From a virus, in UHGV virus genome UHGV-1737584: 15,092 bases of DNA. One strand, 5' to 3'. The notes under the pieces are model-generated. The model saw only the letters and a program-made list of their open reading frames with translations. It did not search any database and was not told the DNA's origin. Within the stretch, counting starts at the first letter, position 1, and every line of letters begins with the position of its first letter. The position numbers were made by a program, and so were the translations under genes. Shown one piece after another: positions 2,777 through 15,012 of the stretch.

Positions 2777-4206
2777 TCCTCCTCATACGAAATATTAAAG
2801 GTGGAGTTTTCTGTATCCAGATAAACGAAATCGTAAAAGCCGTTGGACTCATTCCACTCGACAAATTCCAGATAAAAGTCGCGGAAATAACCCAGCGTTT
2901 CGATAAATGCCCAAACGTCTTTTTTCTTAATCAGGATGTACTTGCCGACACGGTTCGGATCAAAGAAAGTTGAGTCACGCCCAAATTTTGTTTCCAGTGC
3001 CGACTTCAGCTCATCAGTCACGTTCTCAATGGTCAGGCTTGCCGATATCCGCCCGGTGATGGTGATCTTAAAGGGTAGTTTTCTGACCTCTTTATACGAG
3101 AATTTCTTGTTCAACTCATTCGGCACCTTCTTAAAGGCAGCCAGGATCATTTCTTCAAGCTCTGACTGGCTTTTATTTGGATGCCACCCTGAAATAAATA
3201 TCTTATTGATATTCCGAACATTATAAGCACCATCTAATTTCTCTTGCTGGCCTTCGCCCCATGCCTTTACCCAGGACAGTCCCGGGATGTTACGCACCAG
3301 AAAATACGTATAGTCCCCGCCCCATACGACCTGATCATCATAGGCAAGGTAATATTGTGCACGGTTACGTGTGATCTCCGTTGTTTCGGCATCGGTACCT
3401 GCGGTTATAGGTGTCATTGTCTTAACTGAAATCAAATTAGCTAAATTAGCCGCAGAATCGACAGGCGTCAGGTTTTGGCCAGCAACCAGGGTTATATCGC
3501 CGTTGGTGCACCATACCTTAAGCGTAATGATCGAGCCTTCTGGCGGTATTTGCCCAATTAGCCCATCACCGAATCGAACCCCCAACTGCTCAGATGGTTT
3601 ATAAAACTCAACGTAGACCTGGCTTTTACTACCGGCTAACCGGAACATAGTGCTGGAAGACCACTGCGTGGTCTTACCATCGGTCGTCACGAATACTTCC
3701 AGCTTATAGCAGACAGCAGTAAGAGCCTTTGATAACACGACTTCCAGAAATTCTTTAGCTGCCGTAACGGTATATGTCACCTCCTGGATTTCCAACTGCG
3801 CCACTTCTACCGTACCGGTGCCGTCAACCAACCTGCATACATCCATAGTCATGTAAGGGTACTGGTCGTCAGATATTAAAGGCATGTTTTTGGGGATTAC
3901 CGCTGGGGCATCTTCACTTGTGGCGGTGATCTCAATCATCCCCGATGACGGTGTTGGCTTGGTACCAACGTAACTATTCGTTTCTGCCGCTGCCAGGATA
4001 GAGGAACGCCGCGTCGCGGTCGATATAAAGCCTTCAGCCAGCGCCGCATCGGCATACTGAAAGCACCTGTAGACAATCTGGGTAATAAACAATGTCAGCA
4101 TCGAGACAAATTGAGAGCCGACAAACTTCGACCAGAATGAGTCTTTCTCGACAAGCTCTTCAAACTCTGCACGAATACTGTCTTTAGTCGGTGTTGTTTT
4201 ACTCAT
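2773..4206 (-). CDS. 477-aa putative baseplate protein (baseplate J-like size class)
   Basis: Complete ORF coupled by 4-bp overlaps to both neighbours (4203-4206 and 2773-2776). Size and position between a small wedge-like gene and the fibre-proximal genes fit a baseplate component (P1 bplA by position); not verified by motif. Confidence 0.6.
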   Translation of the reverse strand: MSKTTPTKDSIRAEFEELVEKDSFWSKFVGSQFVSMLTLFITQIVYRCFQYADAALAEGFISTATRRSSILAAAETNSYVGTKPTPSSGMIEITATSEDAPAVIPKNMPLISDDQYPYMTMDVCRLVDGTGTVEVAQLEIQEVTYTVTAAKEFLEVVLSKALTAVCYKLEVFVTTDGKTTQWSSSTMFRLAGSKSQVYVEFYKPSEQLGVRFGDGLIGQIPPEGSIITLKVWCTNGDITLVAGQNLTPVDSAANLANLISVKTMTPITAGTDAETTEITRNRAQYYLAYDDQVVWGGDYTYFLVRNIPGLSWVKAWGEGQQEKLDGAYNVRNINKIFISGWHPNKSQSELEEMILAAFKKVPNELNKKFSYKEVRKLPFKITITGRISASLTIENVTDELKSALETKFGRDSTFFDPNRVGKYILIKKKDVWAFIETLGYFRDFYLEFVEWNESNGFYDFVYLDTENSTFNISYEEE

Positions 4207-10233: not shown

Positions 10234-10773
10234 CTACCACCAACTGCTAGCTTTCTTCTCTCTAGCTTTTCCTTCGCTTTGCAGTAAATCTTTACTTCCT
10301 GTAGAAATATTTCTATTTGCATCAGCCTCAGACTGAATTACATCTGTCTTAGCTGCTCTCTCCTTCAACTCCTGCTCTATAAAATCGTTTTCTCGCTGGA
10401 CACGAGCCGCTTTTGCTTGCAGTTCGAGTTTCATGCTTTCGAGTTGCAGCTTGCGAAGCTCATCCTCATAAGCTTGATCTCGCTTCTTGTCATTTGCTAG
10501 CTCGGCTTCTCGTTTCGCTCTACGTTCATTTTCTGCAGCAACACGCTGTTTTTCGCGTGCAGCAGCGGCAGATGCTGCTTTTTCTCTTCTAATACGTTCA
10601 GCTTGTGCTTGTTGGCGAATAAGTTCTTTTCTGGCATCCTCAGCTTGCTGCTCTTTAGCTCGCCCTTCATTTTCCGCTTGAGCAATAGCAGCAATTTGAC
10701 TTTGCAACGAGTTAGCCAAGGCAGTGCCTACACTAAACGTAGAAAAGATTAGAAATAAAATAATTTTATTCAT
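10234..10773 (-). CDS. Exported (signal-peptide) coiled-coil protein, 179 aa, TolA-like charged helical repeats
   Basis: N-terminus MNKIILFLIFSTFSVGTALA is a classic Sec signal peptide. The mature part is a highly charged Ala/Glu/Arg/Lys/Gln-rich predicted coiled coil ending in SSWW. Lies in the P1 sim-locus position. Confidence 0.75.
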   Translation of the reverse strand: MNKIILFLIFSTFSVGTALANSLQSQIAAIAQAENEGRAKEQQAEDARKELIRQQAQAERIRREKAASAAAAREKQRVAAENERRAKREAELANDKKRDQAYEDELRKLQLESMKLELQAKAARVQRENDFIEQELKERAAKTDVIQSEADANRNISTGSKDLLQSEGKAREKKASSWW

Positions 10774-10776
10774 AAA

Positions 10777-11298
10777 TTATTTCTTTTCTGGACAAGTAGC
10801 ATTTGGCTGAATTCGAGTTTCATTATCTTTAGTTGAAATAAGCACAGCAAGCCCCGTTGTAAACTGGCATGCTTTACCAACTTGAGTTGAAGTGAACACC
10901 TTAGTTCCTTCTTTATAAGTCAGTGAAACACCTTCAACAATTGTTTTATCACTAACCAAAGAACCAGCCGCTGCACCAAGAGCCGCACCACCAGTACCGC
11001 CAGCTACAGCACCCAGTGTCGATGTGCCTTTAACATTATAACCGGCAACGCCCCCAGCAACAGCTCCCAGTACCGCACCAAATGTCTGTGCCGCTTCTTT
11101 ATTAGCTTTATTATCAACTTTCACTTTAGCTGGAAGCACAGAGATAATATTGACTGTCTTTGTTTCCTGCTTCGAATTCAATTGAGCGGTATCATAAACA
11201 TCGGCAGCATAATCAGCACCGCTAGATTGACACCCAGAAAGAAGAATTGCAGATACAACAAGAGCGCATAAAGTATACTTTTTAGACATAAGAATCAT
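10777..11298 (-). CDS. Lipoprotein with glycine-zipper segment, 173 aa (or 170 aa from the second ATG at complement 11287-11289)
   Basis: Lipobox LLSGC after a KK-containing hydrophobic leader (MSKKYTLCALVVSAILLSGC). Central GAVLGAVAGGVAGY...GAVAGGTGGAALGAAAGS glycine zipper, typical of SlyB/PCP-like outer-membrane lipoproteins. Two C-terminal Cys. Only 3 bp separate it from the downstream gene. Confidence 0.8.
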   Translation of the reverse strand: MILMSKKYTLCALVVSAILLSGCQSSGADYAADVYDTAQLNSKQETKTVNIISVLPAKVKVDNKANKEAAQTFGAVLGAVAGGVAGYNVKGTSTLGAVAGGTGGAALGAAAGSLVSDKTIVEGVSLTYKEGTKVFTSTQVGKACQFTTGLAVLISTKDNETRIQPNATCPEKK

Positions 11299-11565: not shown

Positions 11566-11596
11566 TTGCACGACACTCATCTGCTCTAATAAATTT
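11566..11596 (+). promoter_or_regulatory. Sigma70-like promoter (TTGCAC-17-ATAAAT) overlapped by a C1-operator-like site (ATCTGCTCTAATAAATTT)
   Basis: -35 at 11566-11571, -10 at 11589-11594. The 15-mer TGCTCTAATAAATTT at 11582-11596 matches the P1 C1 operator consensus ATTGCTCTAATAAATTT as I remember it (15/17) and recurs at 13253-13267. Confidence 0.6.
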
Positions 11597-11634: not shown

Positions 11635-11663
11635 TTGACCTTTTAATCGTTCAGGCTTATAGT
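11635..11663 (+). promoter_or_regulatory. Near-consensus sigma70 promoter TTGACC-17 nt-TATAGT, candidate constitutive promoter for the c4-icd-ant transcript
   Basis: -35 at 11635-11640, 17-nt spacer, -10 at 11658-11663. Lies ~120 nt upstream of the structured RNA and has no operator-like sequence over it. Confidence 0.6.
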
Positions 11664-11783
11664 TTCGCCGTCGTAGCAAATTCTGCGACCGGGTTTAGCA
11701 GCCTGAATGATTGTGCGGACAGCCGCAGATATCCGATATTGCGGTATTTTTGTGTCCGTAAAACCGCGTTACGCCCAAATTAT

Positions 11784-11860
11784 GGTGGGGCGTGATGGGG
11801 AGGCTTCGGCCTGCTGGTTTCACAATCGCCAGTCTGCTAACCCCGTCACGTCCTGCCACC
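11784..11860 (+). ncRNA. c4: c4-like antisense repressor RNA, ~77 nt, structured
   Basis: Nested stems read from sequence: GGUGG (11784-11788) with CCACC (11856-11860); GUGAUGGGG (11792-11800) with CCCCGUCAC (11841-11849, one G-U); internal GGC-UUCG-GCC tetraloop hairpin (11802-11811). Single-stranded segments are complementary to downstream sites at the icd RBS. The 77-nt span matches the reported length of P1 c4, but I chose the ends knowing that length. Confidence 0.55.
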
Positions 11861-11910
11861 TGTTTAGCAGCGGGTAGCAGGTTGTTAAACCTGATTGTGA
11901 GGCCGTAACT

Positions 11911-12132
11911 ATGGTTAATGCCAATCCTTGCGCACGCCAAGAATTCATCTGGCGTTTCTATTCCTGTAAAAAACACCACTATCACTTCGTCATCGCAGCA
12001 ACAGAAGACGAAGCACGCTCTCAATTGCCTGATGGTCCCTGCATTTTTACTGCCCGTTTTTCAACTAACTCGCGCAATTCACTTAGTTACTGGAACCTCC
12101 CCTTCTCTGCCGACGTTCAGGGGGATTTATGA
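11911..12132 (+). CDS. icd: Small 73-aa protein, translationally coupled to the antirepressor gene (Icd-like)
   Basis: ORF with GAGG 8 nt upstream of its ATG; its TGA overlaps the ant start (ATGA at 12129-12132). The RBS region is complementary to the upstream RNA. The 73-aa length and position match P1 icd as I recall. Confidence 0.6.
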   Translation: MVNANPCARQEFIWRFYSCKKHHYHFVIAATEDEARSQLPDGPCIFTARFSTNSRNSLSYWNLPFSADVQGDL

Positions 12133-13172
12133 AAAAACCTCTCGTCACCCGTAATGAAATAGCCGAAGCGATCGCCCTGCATACAACCTGTATGCCGACA
12201 CGGGAGATCCCCGGCGCAATTGCCAACTATTTCATGATAACCAGACGTTTTTATACCCGAACAGATAAGGCTGTGATCAACAAGCTACTGATAGCCGAGA
12301 TCAGGGATTATTTGATTGAACAAGGACGTCTACGTTACGCAACAGTGGCAGCAGAAATGAGAAAGGAGGCACATAGAATGACCGGTAATAATTTGAATGT
12401 TGAAAAACCAGCACCTGTTGCTTCAGCTACGCCATCACCAGCTGTGAATGTTATCTCCAACACTGGAGACACAATCGACAGCCAGACACTGTTAAAGATG
12501 GTCAATGAAGCTCGTAAGTTATGTGGGGAACCAGAGGTTCGGAACAACAAATTCATCGAAAAAATACTCGACGAATTAGAAGGTGAGGACGGTTACACAA
12601 AAAGTGCAACCGTGCCGCCAGGTGGCGGTACGCCTATGGTTGTCATAACCATGACCTACAAACAAGCCCTGCGAGTCGCCGCGCGCGAGTCAAAAGCGGT
12701 CCGCCGTTCGCTGATCGACAAACTGGAAGAATTACAGCAGGCAAACTCCCCTACCCCATCGATCCCCCAGACATTACCAGAAGCCCTACGCCTGGCTGCC
12801 GAGTTAGCAGAACAGAAAATGCAGTTGGAACAACAGCTGGTGGCCGCAGCCCCTAAAGTCGATTTTGCCGACCGGGTATCAGTGGCCAATGGAATCCTGA
12901 TCGGGAACTTTGCAAAGGTCGTTGGACTTAAGCAAAACGCCCTTTTCTCATGGTTGCGCCAGAATGGCATTCTCATGGCTTTTGGAGCGCGCAAAAACGT
13001 ACCGCGCCAACAGTACATCAACGCGGGGTATTTCACGGTGAAAGAAGTGGTGCTGGATGATGAAAATGGCTACCAGATACGGCTGACGCCCCAATTAACG
13101 GGTAAAGGCCAGCAGTGGTTAACTCGCAAGCTACTTGATGCTGGTTTGTTAAAACCAGTAGCAATAGGTTAA
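12129..13172 (+). CDS. ant1: Antirepressor Ant1, 347 aa, with C-terminal ANT/KilA-C type domain
   Basis: Strong SD AGGGGG upstream of the ATG. C-terminal ~130 aa (LPEALRLAAELAEQ...GKGQQWL...LLDAG) is the phage antirepressor C-terminal domain and is paralogous to the KilA C-terminus in this window. Confidence 0.85.
   Translation: MKKPLVTRNEIAEAIALHTTCMPTREIPGAIANYFMITRRFYTRTDKAVINKLLIAEIRDYLIEQGRLRYATVAAEMRKEAHRMTGNNLNVEKPAPVASATPSPAVNVISNTGDTIDSQTLLKMVNEARKLCGEPEVRNNKFIEKILDELEGEDGYTKSATVPPGGGTPMVVITMTYKQALRVAARESKAVRRSLIDKLEELQQANSPTPSIPQTLPEALRLAAELAEQKMQLEQQLVAAAPKVDFADRVSVANGILIGNFAKVVGLKQNALFSWLRQNGILMAFGARKNVPRQQYINAGYFTVKEVVLDDENGYQIRLTPQLTGKGQQWLTRKLLDAGLLKPVAIG
12378..13172 (+). CDS. 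ant2: Nested in-frame antirepressor Ant2 (264 aa) from an internal start
   Basis: Internal in-frame ATG at 12378-12380 preceded by a consensus SD AAGGAGG at 12364-12370. P1 is known to make Ant1 and Ant2 from in-frame overlapping starts. Confidence 0.6.
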   Translation: MTGNNLNVEKPAPVASATPSPAVNVISNTGDTIDSQTLLKMVNEARKLCGEPEVRNNKFIEKILDELEGEDGYTKSATVPPGGGTPMVVITMTYKQALRVAARESKAVRRSLIDKLEELQQANSPTPSIPQTLPEALRLAAELAEQKMQLEQQLVAAAPKVDFADRVSVANGILIGNFAKVVGLKQNALFSWLRQNGILMAFGARKNVPRQQYINAGYFTVKEVVLDDENGYQIRLTPQLTGKGQQWLTRKLLDAGLLKPVAIG

Positions 13173-13184
13173 CAAAAGAAAAAA

Positions 13185-13210
13185 ACCTGCCAGCAAACTG
13201 GCAGGTTTCT
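13185..13210 (+). terminator. Hairpin terminator after ant (9-bp perfect stem ACCTGCCAG / CTGGCAGGT, loop CAAA, then TTCT)
   Basis: Read directly from sequence, 13 nt after the ant stop. The 3' U-tract is short, so termination may be partial. A-rich 5' flank could also let it act on the opposite strand. Confidence 0.55.
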
Positions 13211-13336: not shown

Positions 13337-14137
13337 ATGCAACAAACATTCAATGCGGATATGAATATATCAAACCTTCATCAAAATGTCGATCCTTCAA
13401 CCACTCTGCCCGTTATTTGTGGTGTTGAAATTACGACCGACCGCGCTGGCCGTTACAACCTTAATGCTCTACACAGAGCGAGCGGACTCGGTGCCCATAA
13501 AGCGCCAGCTCAATGGCTAAGAACGCTGTCAGCCAAACAGCTCATCGAAGAGCTTGAAAAAGAAACTATGCAGAATTGCATAGTTTCGTTCGAAGGCCGT
13601 GGCGGCGGCACTTTTGCCCATGAATTGCTCGCAGTGGAGTACGCAGGCTGGATTTCTCCCGCGTTTCGGCTGAAGGTAAACCAGACATTTATCGACTATC
13701 GAGCCGGAAGATTACAACCTGCTATTCCGAAGAGCCTCCCAGAAGCTCTCCGTTTGGCTGCTGACCTGGCAGAGCAAAAGCAACGGCTGGAGCAAAAAAT
13801 GCTGATGGATGCACCTAAAGTCGAATTCGCCGAACGCGTTGCTACCGCCAGCGGGGTTCTAATCGGCAACTATGCCAAAGTGCTCGGCCTGGGCCAAAAC
13901 TATCTCTTCACCTGGTTGCGTGATAACGGAATTCTGATCGCAACCGGTGAACGCAGGAACGTCCCCAAACAAGAATACATATCCCGTGGGTATTTCACCC
14001 TTAAAGAAACCGTGATCGATACAAGCAATGGAAGCAGGATTTCTTTCACGACTCGTATAACCGGCAAAGGTCAGCAGTGGCTGATGAAGCGATTGCTTGA
14101 TGCTGGTGTGCTGGTACCTGTCGCGGCAACGCGCTAA
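13337..14137 (+). CDS. kilA: KilA protein, 266 aa: N-terminal KilA-N domain plus C-terminal ANT-type domain
   Basis: SD GGAG 7 nt upstream. N-terminal region (ICGVEITTDRAGRYNLNALHRASG...) has the KilA-N DNA-binding-domain character. C-terminal ~130 aa are paralogous to Ant. The 266-aa length matches P1 KilA as I recall. Confidence 0.8.
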   Translation: MQQTFNADMNISNLHQNVDPSTTLPVICGVEITTDRAGRYNLNALHRASGLGAHKAPAQWLRTLSAKQLIEELEKETMQNCIVSFEGRGGGTFAHELLAVEYAGWISPAFRLKVNQTFIDYRAGRLQPAIPKSLPEALRLAADLAEQKQRLEQKMLMDAPKVEFAERVATASGVLIGNYAKVLGLGQNYLFTWLRDNGILIATGERRNVPKQEYISRGYFTLKETVIDTSNGSRISFTTRITGKGQQWLMKRLLDAGVLVPVAATR

Positions 14138-14166: not shown

Positions 14167-15012
14167 ATGCTGGCTAAAGTCACTTTCCTGAGCTGTATAA
14201 CGATGAGCGATTTTACTTTTTCTGGCTATGAATTGGCCTGCTTTGTAACACACTCCGGTCTATCCCGTAGCGCCGGGCATATCCTGTCGCAATGTGCAAA
14301 TCTAGCGGCAACAACCAGTGAATACTTCATTCACAAGCCTCACCGCCTGATCGCGGCAGAAACTGGTTATAGCCAATCAACCGTCGTTCGTGCATTCCGT
14401 GAAGCTGTAAACAAAGGAATTCTGTCTGTAGAGATTGTTATCGGCGATCACCGTGAACGTCGCGCTAACCTGTACCGGTTTACACCATCCTTTTTGGCCT
14501 TTGCTCAACAAGCCAAAAATGCGCTAATTGAAAGCAAATTAAAGATCTCTTCAGCCGCAACCAAGGTTAAAGCAGTTCTCGCTAAGACATTGGCTTTATT
14601 TGATTTTTTATCCACACCCCCATGTCAAAATGATACCCCCTCCCCCTGTCAGGATGACGTGGCAATAAAGAATAAGAAGTCACAAATTAAAAAAACAAAA
14701 AGATCAGTTTCCGGCGGTGCCGAAACGACCAGCCTCAAAAAACTGACTTCATGGATCGCCGAGGCAAAAGCAAAGGCTGACAATCTGCGGTTATCCAAAA
14801 AACGCGCTCAAAAACATGAGTTCAAGCAGAAAGTAGAGGCGGCAGCGCGGAAATATGCTTACCTGAAGAACAAGCGTTCTCCTGATATTGGCGGGGTATC
14901 AAACTTCGATAATTTGCCGCATTGCATGACGGTAAACGAAGCTCTTAATGCGGTTTTAGCCAAAAATAAAGATAACGAACAATGGGGTATACCGGCAGGA
15001 TTCAGAGGGTGA
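14167..15012 (+). CDS. repL: Lytic replicon protein RepL-like, 281 aa, with HTH-like segment
   Basis: ORF immediately after kilA. Segment LIAAETGYSQSTVVRAFREAVNKGIL looks like a helix-turn-helix. Contains an internal short direct repeat and an A-rich tract. The 281-aa length matches P1 RepL as I recall. No clear SD at 14167; an in-frame alternative ATG lies at 14203. Confidence 0.7.
   Translation: MLAKVTFLSCITMSDFTFSGYELACFVTHSGLSRSAGHILSQCANLAATTSEYFIHKPHRLIAAETGYSQSTVVRAFREAVNKGILSVEIVIGDHRERRANLYRFTPSFLAFAQQAKNALIESKLKISSAATKVKAVLAKTLALFDFLSTPPCQNDTPSPCQDDVAIKNKKSQIKKTKRSVSGGAETTSLKKLTSWIAEAKAKADNLRLSKKRAQKHEFKQKVEAAARKYAYLKNKRSPDIGGVSNFDNLPHCMTVNEALNAVLAKNKDNEQWGIPAGFRG

What the first reader, a model, noticed from the sequence alone, without database searches (positions are those of the whole stretch)
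11911..12132. Small icd ORF translationally coupled to ant through an ATGA overlap
The 73-aa ORF stops inside the ant start codon context. Translation of ant therefore depends on ribosomes completing icd, so the antisense RNA can silence both genes by blocking a single RBS. P1 Icd is reported to interfere with cell division.
Basis: partly seen in the sequence, partly recalled or inferred. Interest (0 to 1): 0.4.

Follow-up and report, generated by a model that had tools for sequence, protein, structure and literature searches.

The report
Phage P7-type icd–ant overlap, known
The small ORF is the well-studied icd gene of a P1/P7-family plasmid-prophage, sitting between the C4 antisense RNA and the antirepressor gene exactly as in the textbook immI operon, so the finding is correct but ordinary.

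Summary
A 73-codon ORF (11911-12132, +) ends in TGA inside ATGA, whose ATG (12129) starts a 347-aa KilAC/ANT antirepressor.

The locus is the immI operon of a P1/P7-like phage-plasmid. Icd is 99% identical to P7 Icd and 96% to P1 Icd. Rfam finds C4 RNA (11778-11863) and its a1/b1 element upstream. The C4 loops are perfectly complementary to a2 (11864-11870) and b2 (11893-11900), and b2 overlaps the icd Shine-Dalgarno. All alleles are P7-type.

- C4/target complementarity holds in 81/81 related loci across 7 allele combinations.
- The icd stop overlaps the next gene's start in 81/84 close loci and 75/78 distant Icd-like loci.
- Both reading frames at the junction are under purifying selection.

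One refinement: ant2 has its own strong SD (12363-12369) and icd RNA is C-rich and G-poor. Silencing of the whole ant region therefore probably also needs Rho-dependent polarity in untranslated icd, which I recall was reported for P1/P7.

Nothing here departs from the known system. The locus occurs in about 10% of complete E. coli genomes and PGAP annotates it routinely. Novelty: already known. Interest is low.

The parts
11580..11596 (+). C1 repressor operator Op(c4)/Op51 (TCTGCTCTAATAAATTT)
   Evidence: Equivalent to the annotated P7 feature at L001 1581-1597. The window and P7 align without gaps here.
11635..11663 (+). Sigma-70 promoter of the immI operon (TTGACC, 17 nt spacer, TATAGT), equivalent to P1 P1c4/P51b
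   Evidence: The promoter scan gives 10/12 matches. The site is identical in position to the annotated P1 promoter P1c4.
11657..11709 (+). c4-a1b1 element. The upstream target copies are a1 (11695-11701, TTAGCAG) and b1 (11709-11715, GATTGTG).
   Evidence: Rfam RF03163, 54.6 bits against a gathering score of 46.7. Exact complementarity to the C4 loops.
11778..11863 (+). C4 antisense RNA (mature 77-nt RNA about 11784-11860 by P7 annotation). Loop b' is 11820-11827 (UCACAAUC) and loop a' is 11834-11840 (CUGCUAA), both P7-type alleles.
   Evidence: Rfam RF01695, 69.6 bits against a gathering score of 45, E=4e-12. P7 misc_RNA c4 annotation. Allele typing.
11864..11870 (+). a2 target site (UUAGCAG) for C4 loop a'
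   Evidence: Exact 7-nt complement of 11834-11840. Annotated as a2 in P1. Complementarity is kept in 81/81 loci.
11893..11900 (+). b2 target site (GAUUGUGA) for C4 loop b'. It overlaps the icd Shine-Dalgarno GAGG (11899-11902), which lies 8 nt before the ATG.
   Evidence: Exact 8-nt complement of 11820-11827. P1 annotation reads 'target site b2 ... repression of icd ant translation'. Four b'/b2 allele pairs all covary.
11911..12132 (+). icd, 73 aa, host cell-division inhibitor and gateway ORF for ant
   Evidence: ORF. It is 99% identical to P7 Icd and 96% to P1 Icd. NCBIfam NF033153 and phrog_1426 at 3e-47. dN/dS 0.10 against the paralog.
12119..12124 (+). Putative ant1 Shine-Dalgarno (AGGGGG), inside icd codons 70-72. 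The following base, 12125, is polymorphic G/A/T among relatives; the window has A, giving Icd G72D.
   Evidence: Read from the sequence. Polymorphism counts.
12129..12132 (+). ATGA: the ant1 start codon overlaps the icd stop codon
   Evidence: Conserved in 81/84 close loci and 60/78 distant loci, with 15 further distant loci showing an 8-nt overlap.
12129..13172 (+). ant1, 347-aa antirepressor with a KilAC/ANT domain at residues 234-336
   Evidence: Pfam PF03374 at 1.2e-30. phrog_63 'anti-repressor Ant' at 3.5e-105. It is 91% identical to P7 Ant1 and 94% to P1 Ant1. The N-terminal codons are under purifying selection in this frame.
12363..13172 (+). ant2: in-frame internal start at ATG 12378 (codon 84 of ant1) with its own SD AAGGAGG at 12363-12369
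   Evidence: Read from the sequence. Equivalent to the annotated P7 ant2 at L001 2379-3176.
13181..13210 (.). 13-bp GC-rich hairpin just after the ant stop, terminator-like and flanked by an A-run and a T-run
   Evidence: The terminator scan called it on the minus strand. Sequence read.

Best explanation
This is the icd gene of a P7-immunity-type immI operon (Op51/P51b - a1b1 - c4 - a2 - b2/SD - icd - ant1/ant2) carried by a P1-like plasmid-prophage of E. coli.

The operon is transcribed from one promoter, and C4 RNA is cut out of the leader. C4 then pairs through its loops a' and b' with a2 and b2 on the same kind of transcript. Because b2 overlaps the icd Shine-Dalgarno, C4 blocks icd translation.

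When icd is translated:
(i) Icd protein is made. It is a conserved roughly 40-residue beta-beta-alpha-beta core reported to block host cell division reversibly.
(ii) Ribosomes reach the UGA inside AUGA and re-initiate at ant1.
(iii) The C-rich icd RNA stays covered, so transcription continues into ant1/ant2.

When icd is not translated, ant1 loses its feeding ribosomes. Most probably Rho then terminates within or after icd, so ant2, which has its own strong SD, is also silenced.

Shown here: the anatomy, the homology, the complementarity and its covariation, conservation of the overlap, and purifying selection on both proteins. Inferred from published P1/P7 work and not testable here: the cell-division phenotype, the dependence of ant on icd translation, and Rho-dependent polarity.
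For: - Near-identity to P7 and P1 immI at DNA level (97.9% and 94.9%) and protein level, with every annotated feature in register.
- Rfam C4 and c4-a1b1 hits above gathering score.
- Exact a'/a2 and b'/b2 complementarity, with b2 over the SD.
- Complementarity kept in 81/81 loci, where 2 a-alleles and 4 b-alleles occur in 7 combinations.
- Stop/start overlap conserved in 81/84 close loci and 75/78 distant loci, even when the downstream gene is unrelated: an HK97 Roi-like antirepressor in D6 and small unknown proteins in short (about 13-17 kb) contigs that look like P4-type satellites.
- C4 RNA also sits about 50 nt upstream of distant icd-like genes.
- icd dN/dS is 0.10 overall and 0.02 in the core. 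The ant1 N-terminus is coding from ATG 12129.
- icd is C 29% and G 18%, with C/G up to 2.7 per 60 nt, against C roughly equal to G in ant1. This is rut-like.
- GenBank annotation reads 'apparently required for expression of ant', and PMC8201110 says the same.
- In the related IsrK-orf45-anrP system, an AUGA overlap was shown experimentally to mediate coupling (PMC4825925).
Against: - No experiment was done on this sequence.
- ATGA overlaps are common in this genome (4 of 12 junctions), so overlap alone does not prove coupling.
- ant1 has its own SD-like AGGGGG. The predicted hairpin that would hide it (CCUCCCC at 12097-12103 pairing with the G-run, -9.3 kcal/mol) is no better than shuffled controls.
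- The primary papers on coupling and Rho polarity could not be read in the held library, so those steps rest on annotation, secondary citations and my own recollection.
Confidence: 0.9

Rival explanations
1. Polarity-only model. The ATGA overlap is incidental operon compaction. ant is silenced purely because untranslated icd RNA lets Rho terminate transcription before ant, and ant1 initiates independently at its own SD whenever the mRNA exists.
For: icd RNA is C-rich and G-poor. ant1 has an SD-like AGGGGG and ant2 a consensus AAGGAGG. Stop/start overlaps are common in the window. SD sequestration is not better than chance. I recall that Biere et al. 1992 showed Rho-dependent termination in the upstream ORF.
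Against: The overlap is kept in more than 150 loci, including ones where the C-terminal half of Icd and the downstream gene are replaced. AUGA coupling was demonstrated in the related IsrK-orf45-anrP system. The two mechanisms are not mutually exclusive.
Confidence: 0.25
2. Leader-peptide model. icd matters only as a translated spacer that gates ant, and its protein product has no function of its own.
For: orf45 in the IsrK system has conserved nucleotides but variable amino acids (PMC4825925). The C-terminal third of Icd (residues 52-73) is variable across the family. P1 icd is non-essential for lytic growth in a CRISPRi screen (PMC10695390).
Against: Purifying selection on the protein is strong. 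dN/dS is 0.02 in codons 11-51 with saturated synonymous sites. Nine positions are invariant and 12 more are at least 90% conserved in 45 family members at 36-96% identity. AlphaFold gives a confident compact core with pLDDT 80-86. The literature reports a filamentation phenotype.
Confidence: 0.05
3. The ORF is a chance reading frame in the ant leader and is not expressed.
For: There is no Pfam hit. Two other ORFs overlap the same DNA: 11918-12154 on the plus strand and 11695-12024 on the minus strand.
Against: The ORF hits NCBIfam and PHROG families. Variable sites are biased to the third codon position, 13 of 24. dN/dS is well below 1. A canonical GAGG SD lies 8 nt upstream. The ORF is 99% identical to the characterised P7/P1 gene.
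Confidence: 0.01

Closest known systems
Bacteriophage P7 immI operon (c4-icd-ant1/ant2), GenBank AF503408
   Same: The gene order, spacing, C1 operator, promoter, C4 RNA and P7-type a'/a2 and b'/b2 alleles are the same. Icd has the same 73-aa length, the ATGA junction is kept, and the ant2 internal start is present. The P7-type upf50.0/upf50.5 genes lie upstream in place of the P1 sim genes.
   Different: There is one Icd residue difference (G72D, nt 12125 G to A, between the ant1 SD and the ATG). Ant1 is 91% identical, with a divergent patch at residues about 133-172 and one residue fewer.
Bacteriophage P1 immI operon (Riedel, Heinrich & Schuster 1993; Heinrich et al. 1994; annotated in AF234172)
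   Same: The architecture and ATGA overlap are the same. Icd is 96% identical. The annotated roles are inhibitor of cell division, required for ant expression, and C4 b2 site repressing icd/ant translation.
   Different: P1 carries the other immunity alleles (a' CUGUCAA, b' UCACUAAC) with matching targets, hence heteroimmunity. The sim genes lie upstream instead of upf50.0/50.5.
IsrK-orf45-anrP of Salmonella Gifsy-1 (PMC4825925)
   Same: A C4-like small RNA is made from the 5' end of the same transcript. A small ORF follows, whose stop overlaps the antirepressor start as AUGA. Translation of the small ORF is required for antirepressor translation, as shown by mutagenesis. isrK-like RNAs also sit next to C4 at the second icd-ant locus of P1-like elements.
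   Different: IsrK acts in trans as an activator that opens the orf45 RBS, whereas C4 is a repressor that covers the icd RBS. [quoted passage not shown]
Satellite phage P4 CI RNA immunity (premature transcription termination); compared from my own knowledge and from the mention in PMC4825925
   Same: A processed, C4-like RNA from the leader of the operon it controls pairs with downstream target sequences and prevents expression of downstream genes.
   Different: In P4 the outcome is described as transcription termination of untranslated RNA, not RBS occlusion of an icd-like ORF. In five short contigs that look like P4-type satellites (about 13-16 kb; my inference from size) and carry Icd-like genes, no C4 hit reached the Rfam gathering score.
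Generic translationally coupled overlapping genes (termination-reinitiation at AUGA/UGAUG)
   Same: There is a 4-nt stop/start overlap, and the downstream SD is embedded in the upstream coding sequence.
   Different: Nothing distinguishes this junction from other such junctions. Predicted occlusion of the downstream SD is not above chance.

Membership tests
P1/P7 immI operon (c4-icd-ant) | Small protein homologous to P1/P7 Icd | tested here: met
   99% identity to P7 Icd and 96% to P1 Icd over all 73 residues. NCBIfam NF033153 scores 52.7 bits against a 25-bit cut-off.
P1/P7 immI operon (c4-icd-ant) | C4 antisense RNA encoded immediately upstream on the same strand | tested here: met
   Rfam RF01695 at 11778-11863, 69.6 bits against a gathering score of 45. 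The c4-a1b1 element (RF03163) scores 54.6 bits.
P1/P7 immI operon (c4-icd-ant) | C4 loops a' and b' complementary to a2 and b2 in the icd leader, with b2 at the icd ribosome-binding site | tested here: met
   Exact 7-nt and 8-nt complements. b2 (11893-11900) overlaps SD GAGG at 11899-11902. Covariation holds in 81/81 loci.
P1/P7 immI operon (c4-icd-ant) | The icd stop overlaps the start of ant1 (KilAC antirepressor), with an in-frame ant2 internal start | tested here: met
   ATGA at 12129-12132. Pfam ANT at 1.2e-30. ant2 ATG at 12378 with SD AAGGAGG.
P1/P7 immI operon (c4-icd-ant) | C1 operator and constitutive sigma-70 promoter upstream of c4 | tested here: met
   Operator at 11580-11596 and promoter at 11635-11663, in register with the annotated P7 and P1 features.
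P1/P7 immI operon (c4-icd-ant) | Icd expression reversibly inhibits cell division (filamentation) | not testable with these tools
P1/P7 immI operon (c4-icd-ant) | ant expression depends on icd translation | not testable with these tools
   Annotated as 'apparently required for expression of ant'. Comparative support comes from the conserved overlap.
P1/P7 immI operon (c4-icd-ant) | Rho-dependent termination in untranslated icd | tested here: inconclusive
   Only composition could be tested. C/G is 1.4-2.7 across icd against about 1.0 in ant1, and there is no intrinsic terminator on the plus strand between c4 and ant.
Translationally coupled gene pair (termination-reinitiation) | Stop and start codons overlap or abut, with the downstream SD inside the upstream ORF | tested here: met
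   ATGA, with AGGGGG at 12119-12124 inside icd codons 70-72.
Translationally coupled gene pair (termination-reinitiation) | Downstream RBS masked by structure that upstream translation opens | tested here: inconclusive
   The hairpin between CCUCCCC (12097-12103) and the SD G-run is -9.3 kcal/mol here and -13.3 in P1. P(SD paired) is 0.91, but the upstream-shuffled mean is 0.86. z-scores are not significant.

The most novel reading that the evidence does not exclude
Icd-like ORFs may be a portable 'gated entry cassette' rather than just one P1 gene. Across P1-like and D6-like elements and short (about 13-17 kb) contigs that look like P4-type satellites, the Icd-like stop codon overlaps the start of whatever gene follows: a KilAC antirepressor, an HK97 Roi-like antirepressor, or unrelated 62-151-aa proteins. 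The overlap is 4, 8 or 1 nt, and a C4/IsrK-type RNA usually sits upstream. This would mean that one RNA-controlled RBS licenses diverse downstream effectors. The tri-allelic base between the ant1 SD and the AUG (12125, G/A/T, giving Icd G72/D72/V72) could tune the strength of that coupling.
Probability: 0.3. Interest if true: 0.3.

Novelty: already known. Interest (0 to 1): 0.08.

Why it matters
It matters little beyond correct annotation. The locus tells us that the window comes from a P7-immunity-type P1-like plasmid-prophage with an apparently intact secondary immunity switch. Such elements are common vehicles of resistance genes in E. coli. The comparative survey does give a compact sequence-only confirmation of the 1990s genetic model: perfect C4/target covariation through seven allele combinations, and family-wide conservation of the stop/start overlap. 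This adds support to an established mechanism rather than revealing a new one.

Tried and rejected
- Primary papers: Riedel 1993 (PMC204598), Heinrich 1994 (PMC196329), Citron & Schuster 1992 (PMC312442) and Lobocka 2004 (PMC523184) are not held. Details of coupling and Rho polarity therefore rest on GenBank annotation, secondary citations and my own recollection. One literature search returned only noise, because 'icd' also means isocitrate dehydrogenase or a clinical abbreviation.
- RNA structure hiding the ant1 RBS: a plausible hairpin exists, but its energy z-scores (+0.7 to -0.6) and the SD-pairing probability are not better than shuffled controls. I do not claim it.
- Pfam has no model for Icd. 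The weak PHROG hit to a 'transcriptional repressor' family (1.7e-5) was not pursued.
- A pattern scan of species-representative genomes found only 6 loci. The first alignment-based viral scan returned the same close relatives again and had to be repeated with distant sequences listed first.
- Long 'proteins' of 100-470 aa with a C-terminal Icd-like domain in the representative library look like over-extended ORF calls that read through c4, isrK or ash, not real fusions.

Full report
**Observation.** The window contains an ORF at 11911-12132 on the plus strand. It runs from ATG through 73 sense codons to TGA. The next ORF starts at ATG 12129, so the sequence ATGA at 12129-12132 holds the downstream start and the upstream stop. 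That downstream ORF (12129-13172, 347 aa) carries a Pfam ANT/KilAC domain (1.2e-30) and matches PHROG 63 'anti-repressor Ant' (3.5e-105).

**Is the overlap more than chance?** The overlap by itself is not. Among 12 same-strand neighbouring gene pairs in this window, four have 1-4 nt stop/start overlaps, including another exact ATGA at 4203-4206 on the minus strand.

What makes it meaningful is that both frames are truly coding and that the junction is conserved.
- Against a paralogous icd that is only 71% identical in DNA, synonymous sites are saturated (dS about 2) while dN is 0.20. The ratio is 0.10 overall and 0.02 in codons 11-51.
- Among 35 distinct close alleles, 13 of 24 variable sites fall at third codon positions.
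- The first 21 codons of ant1, counted from ATG 12129, give dS 1.76 and dN 0.31 (ratio about 0.18) in the ant frame, but dN exceeds dS in the other two frames. The ATG in ATGA is therefore the real start region of ant1.

**What the locus is.** The 1-kb region around the finding is 97.9% identical to phage P7 and 94.9% to phage P1, and 98.3% to phage phi456. The whole 15-kb window is 98% identical to P1-like phages and to hundreds of E. coli plasmids. The locus is present in 569 of 5426 complete E. coli genomes, almost always on plasmids, and PGAP annotates it as 'host cell division inhibitor Icd-like protein' followed by 'phage antirepressor KilAC domain-containing protein'.

The Icd protein differs from P7 Icd at one residue (G72D) and from P1 Icd at three. 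It passes the NCBIfam NF033153 cut-off. Rfam places C4 antisense RNA at 11778-11863 (69.6 bits) and the c4-a1b1 element at 11657-11709 (54.6 bits).

Every annotated feature of the P7 and P1 records maps in register onto the window:
- C1 operator, 11580-11596
- promoter TTGACC-17-TATAGT, 11635-11663
- c4
- a2 and b2
- icd
- ant1
- ant2, ATG at 12378
- the kilA operator
- kilA, 13337-14137
- repL, 14167-15012

**The antisense link.** C4 loop b' (11820-11827, UCACAAUC) is the exact complement of b2 (11893-11900, GAUUGUGA). Loop a' (11834-11840, CUGCUAA) is the exact complement of a2 (11864-11870). b2 overlaps the icd Shine-Dalgarno GAGG (11899-11902), which lies 8 nt before the ATG. All four alleles are the P7 type, not the P1 type.

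Two a-alleles and four b-alleles occur in seven combinations, and every locus keeps perfect a'/a2 and b'/b2 complementarity. That is strong comparative evidence that C4 really pairs at the icd ribosome-binding site, as the P1 annotation states ('repression of icd ant translation').

**Conservation of the junction.**
- In 84 parsed P1-type icd ORFs, 81 are 73 codons long and end in ATGA.
- The three exceptions are a truncated paralog, a G-run frameshift (L070, 80-aa product ending inside ant1) and a nonsense allele (L074, 20 aa).
- In 78 more distant Icd-like loci, the stop overlaps the next start by 4 nt in 60 and by 8 nt in 15.
- In phage D6 the junction is TGATG, and the downstream gene is a different, HK97 Roi-like antirepressor.
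- In short (about 13-17 kb) contigs that look like P4-type satellites (my inference from contig size), the downstream genes are unrelated proteins of 62-151 aa.
- A C4 RNA sits about 50 nt upstream of the distant icd-like genes in the P1-like second locus and in L185 and L190. Five of the satellite-like contigs gave no hit at gathering score.

**Mechanism.** The best-supported reading is the published immI model. C4, processed from the operon's own leader, occludes the icd RBS. Translation of icd is needed for ant expression. Icd itself inhibits cell division. The GenBank annotation says icd is 'apparently required for expression of ant', and PMC8201110 and PMC8198154 repeat this, citing Riedel et al. 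1993. An experimentally dissected relative, IsrK-orf45-anrP of Gifsy-1, has the same AUGA overlap, and start-codon and stop-codon mutants there showed translational coupling (PMC4825925).

- ant2 has its own consensus SD (AAGGAGG, 12363-12369; ATG 12378), so coupling at ATGA cannot by itself silence Ant2.
- icd RNA is C-rich and G-poor (C 29%, G 18%; C/G up to 2.7 per 60 nt), whereas ant1 has C roughly equal to G. No intrinsic terminator lies between c4 and ant.

Both fit Rho-dependent polarity in untranslated icd, which I recall Biere, Citron and Schuster reported in 1992. I could not read that paper here. Coupling and polarity are most likely both at work.

**What could not be shown.** A hairpin pairing CCUCCCC (12097-12103) with the ant1 SD G-run is predicted, at -9.3 kcal/mol here and -13.3 in P1, where base 12125 is G. 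A similar pairing appears in the paralog and in L190. However, the energies and the SD-pairing probability (0.91 against a shuffled mean of 0.86) are not better than controls. SD masking therefore remains unproven.

**Verdict.** The finding is accurate and its interpretation is essentially the textbook one. This is a known gene in a known operon, of the P7 immunity type, in a very common E. coli plasmid-prophage. The only local peculiarity is the A at 12125 (Icd D72). It lies at a tri-allelic site between the ant1 SD and the AUG, and at least eight other public contigs share it. Novelty: already known. Interest is low.

Noticed in passing
window 11820-11840, 11864-11900; loci L001-L089: C4 loop and target alleles come in 2 a-types and 4 b-types (P7 UCACAAUC, P1 UCACUAAC, D6-type UCGUAAGU, and UCACAAGU), forming 7 combinations in 81 loci. 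All 81 loci are perfectly self-complementary. This suggests more immI immunity specificities than the classical P1/P7 pair, and reassortment between the a and b sites.
   Followed up: partly
window 12125: The base between the ant1 SD G-run and the ATG (second position of icd codon 72) is tri-allelic among close relatives. By regex count it is G in 56 loci, T in 20 and A in 8, giving Icd Gly, Val or Asp. The window has the rarer A. A weakens the predicted SD hairpin from -13.3 to -9.3 kcal/mol.
   Followed up: partly
L070 2501-2743; L074 2501-2563: Natural icd-defective alleles occur in otherwise P1-like contigs. One is a G-run frameshift that extends Icd to 80 aa and moves its stop 20 nt into ant1. 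Several 80-aa protein clusters also appear. The other is a K21 to TAA nonsense allele. Under the coupling and polarity model these prophages should be Ant-down.
   Followed up: no
L086 2227-3807; L087, L088, L187-L249: Many P1-like contigs carry a second icd-ant module about 50 kb from immI. It has an isrK-like RNA, then a C4 RNA, then a 73-aa Icd paralog (79% identity), then ATGA, then an Ant of about 370 aa. Its own loop/target pairs each include a G-U wobble. This probably corresponds to the 'RD-1' icd-ant homologs noted in PMC6906374.
   Followed up: partly
L170-L186: In short (about 13-17 kb) contigs that look like P4-type satellites, and one 52.9-kb contig (L185), Icd-like genes of 57-65 aa overlap the next gene by 8 nt (ATGnnTGA or ATGnnTAA). 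That next gene is a small, highly variable protein of 62-151 aa with unknown function. Five of these loci scanned with Rfam gave no C4 hit at gathering score; L185 did give C4 and isrK hits.
   Followed up: partly
window 12525-12645 (Ant1 residues about 133-172): Ant1 has a divergent patch relative to both P1 and P7. Against P1 the stretch KSATVPPGGGTPMVV versus KSAKSHGTRAGRSFEV looks like a compensated double frameshift, or an error in the older P1 sequence. The rest of Ant1 is nearly identical.
   Followed up: no
window 10234-11298 (minus strand): Upstream of immI the window carries the P7-type upf50.0 (179 aa, signal peptide, Glu/Ala/Lys-rich) and upf50.5 (173-aa lipoprotein) genes. The P1 simABC superimmunity genes are absent from this position.
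   Followed up: no
proteins P0046, P0054, P0064 and others: Public protein sets hold many 100-470-aa 'proteins' whose only real match is an Icd-like domain at the extreme C-terminus. Their N-termini are translations of c4, isrK or ash DNA, or low-complexity read-through. They look like over-extended gene calls rather than fusions.
   Followed up: partly
window 13181-13210: A 13-bp GC-rich palindrome with flanking A-run and T-run sits directly after the ant stop and before the kilA operator and promoter. It looks like a bidirectional terminator separating immI from the lytic replicon.
   Followed up: no
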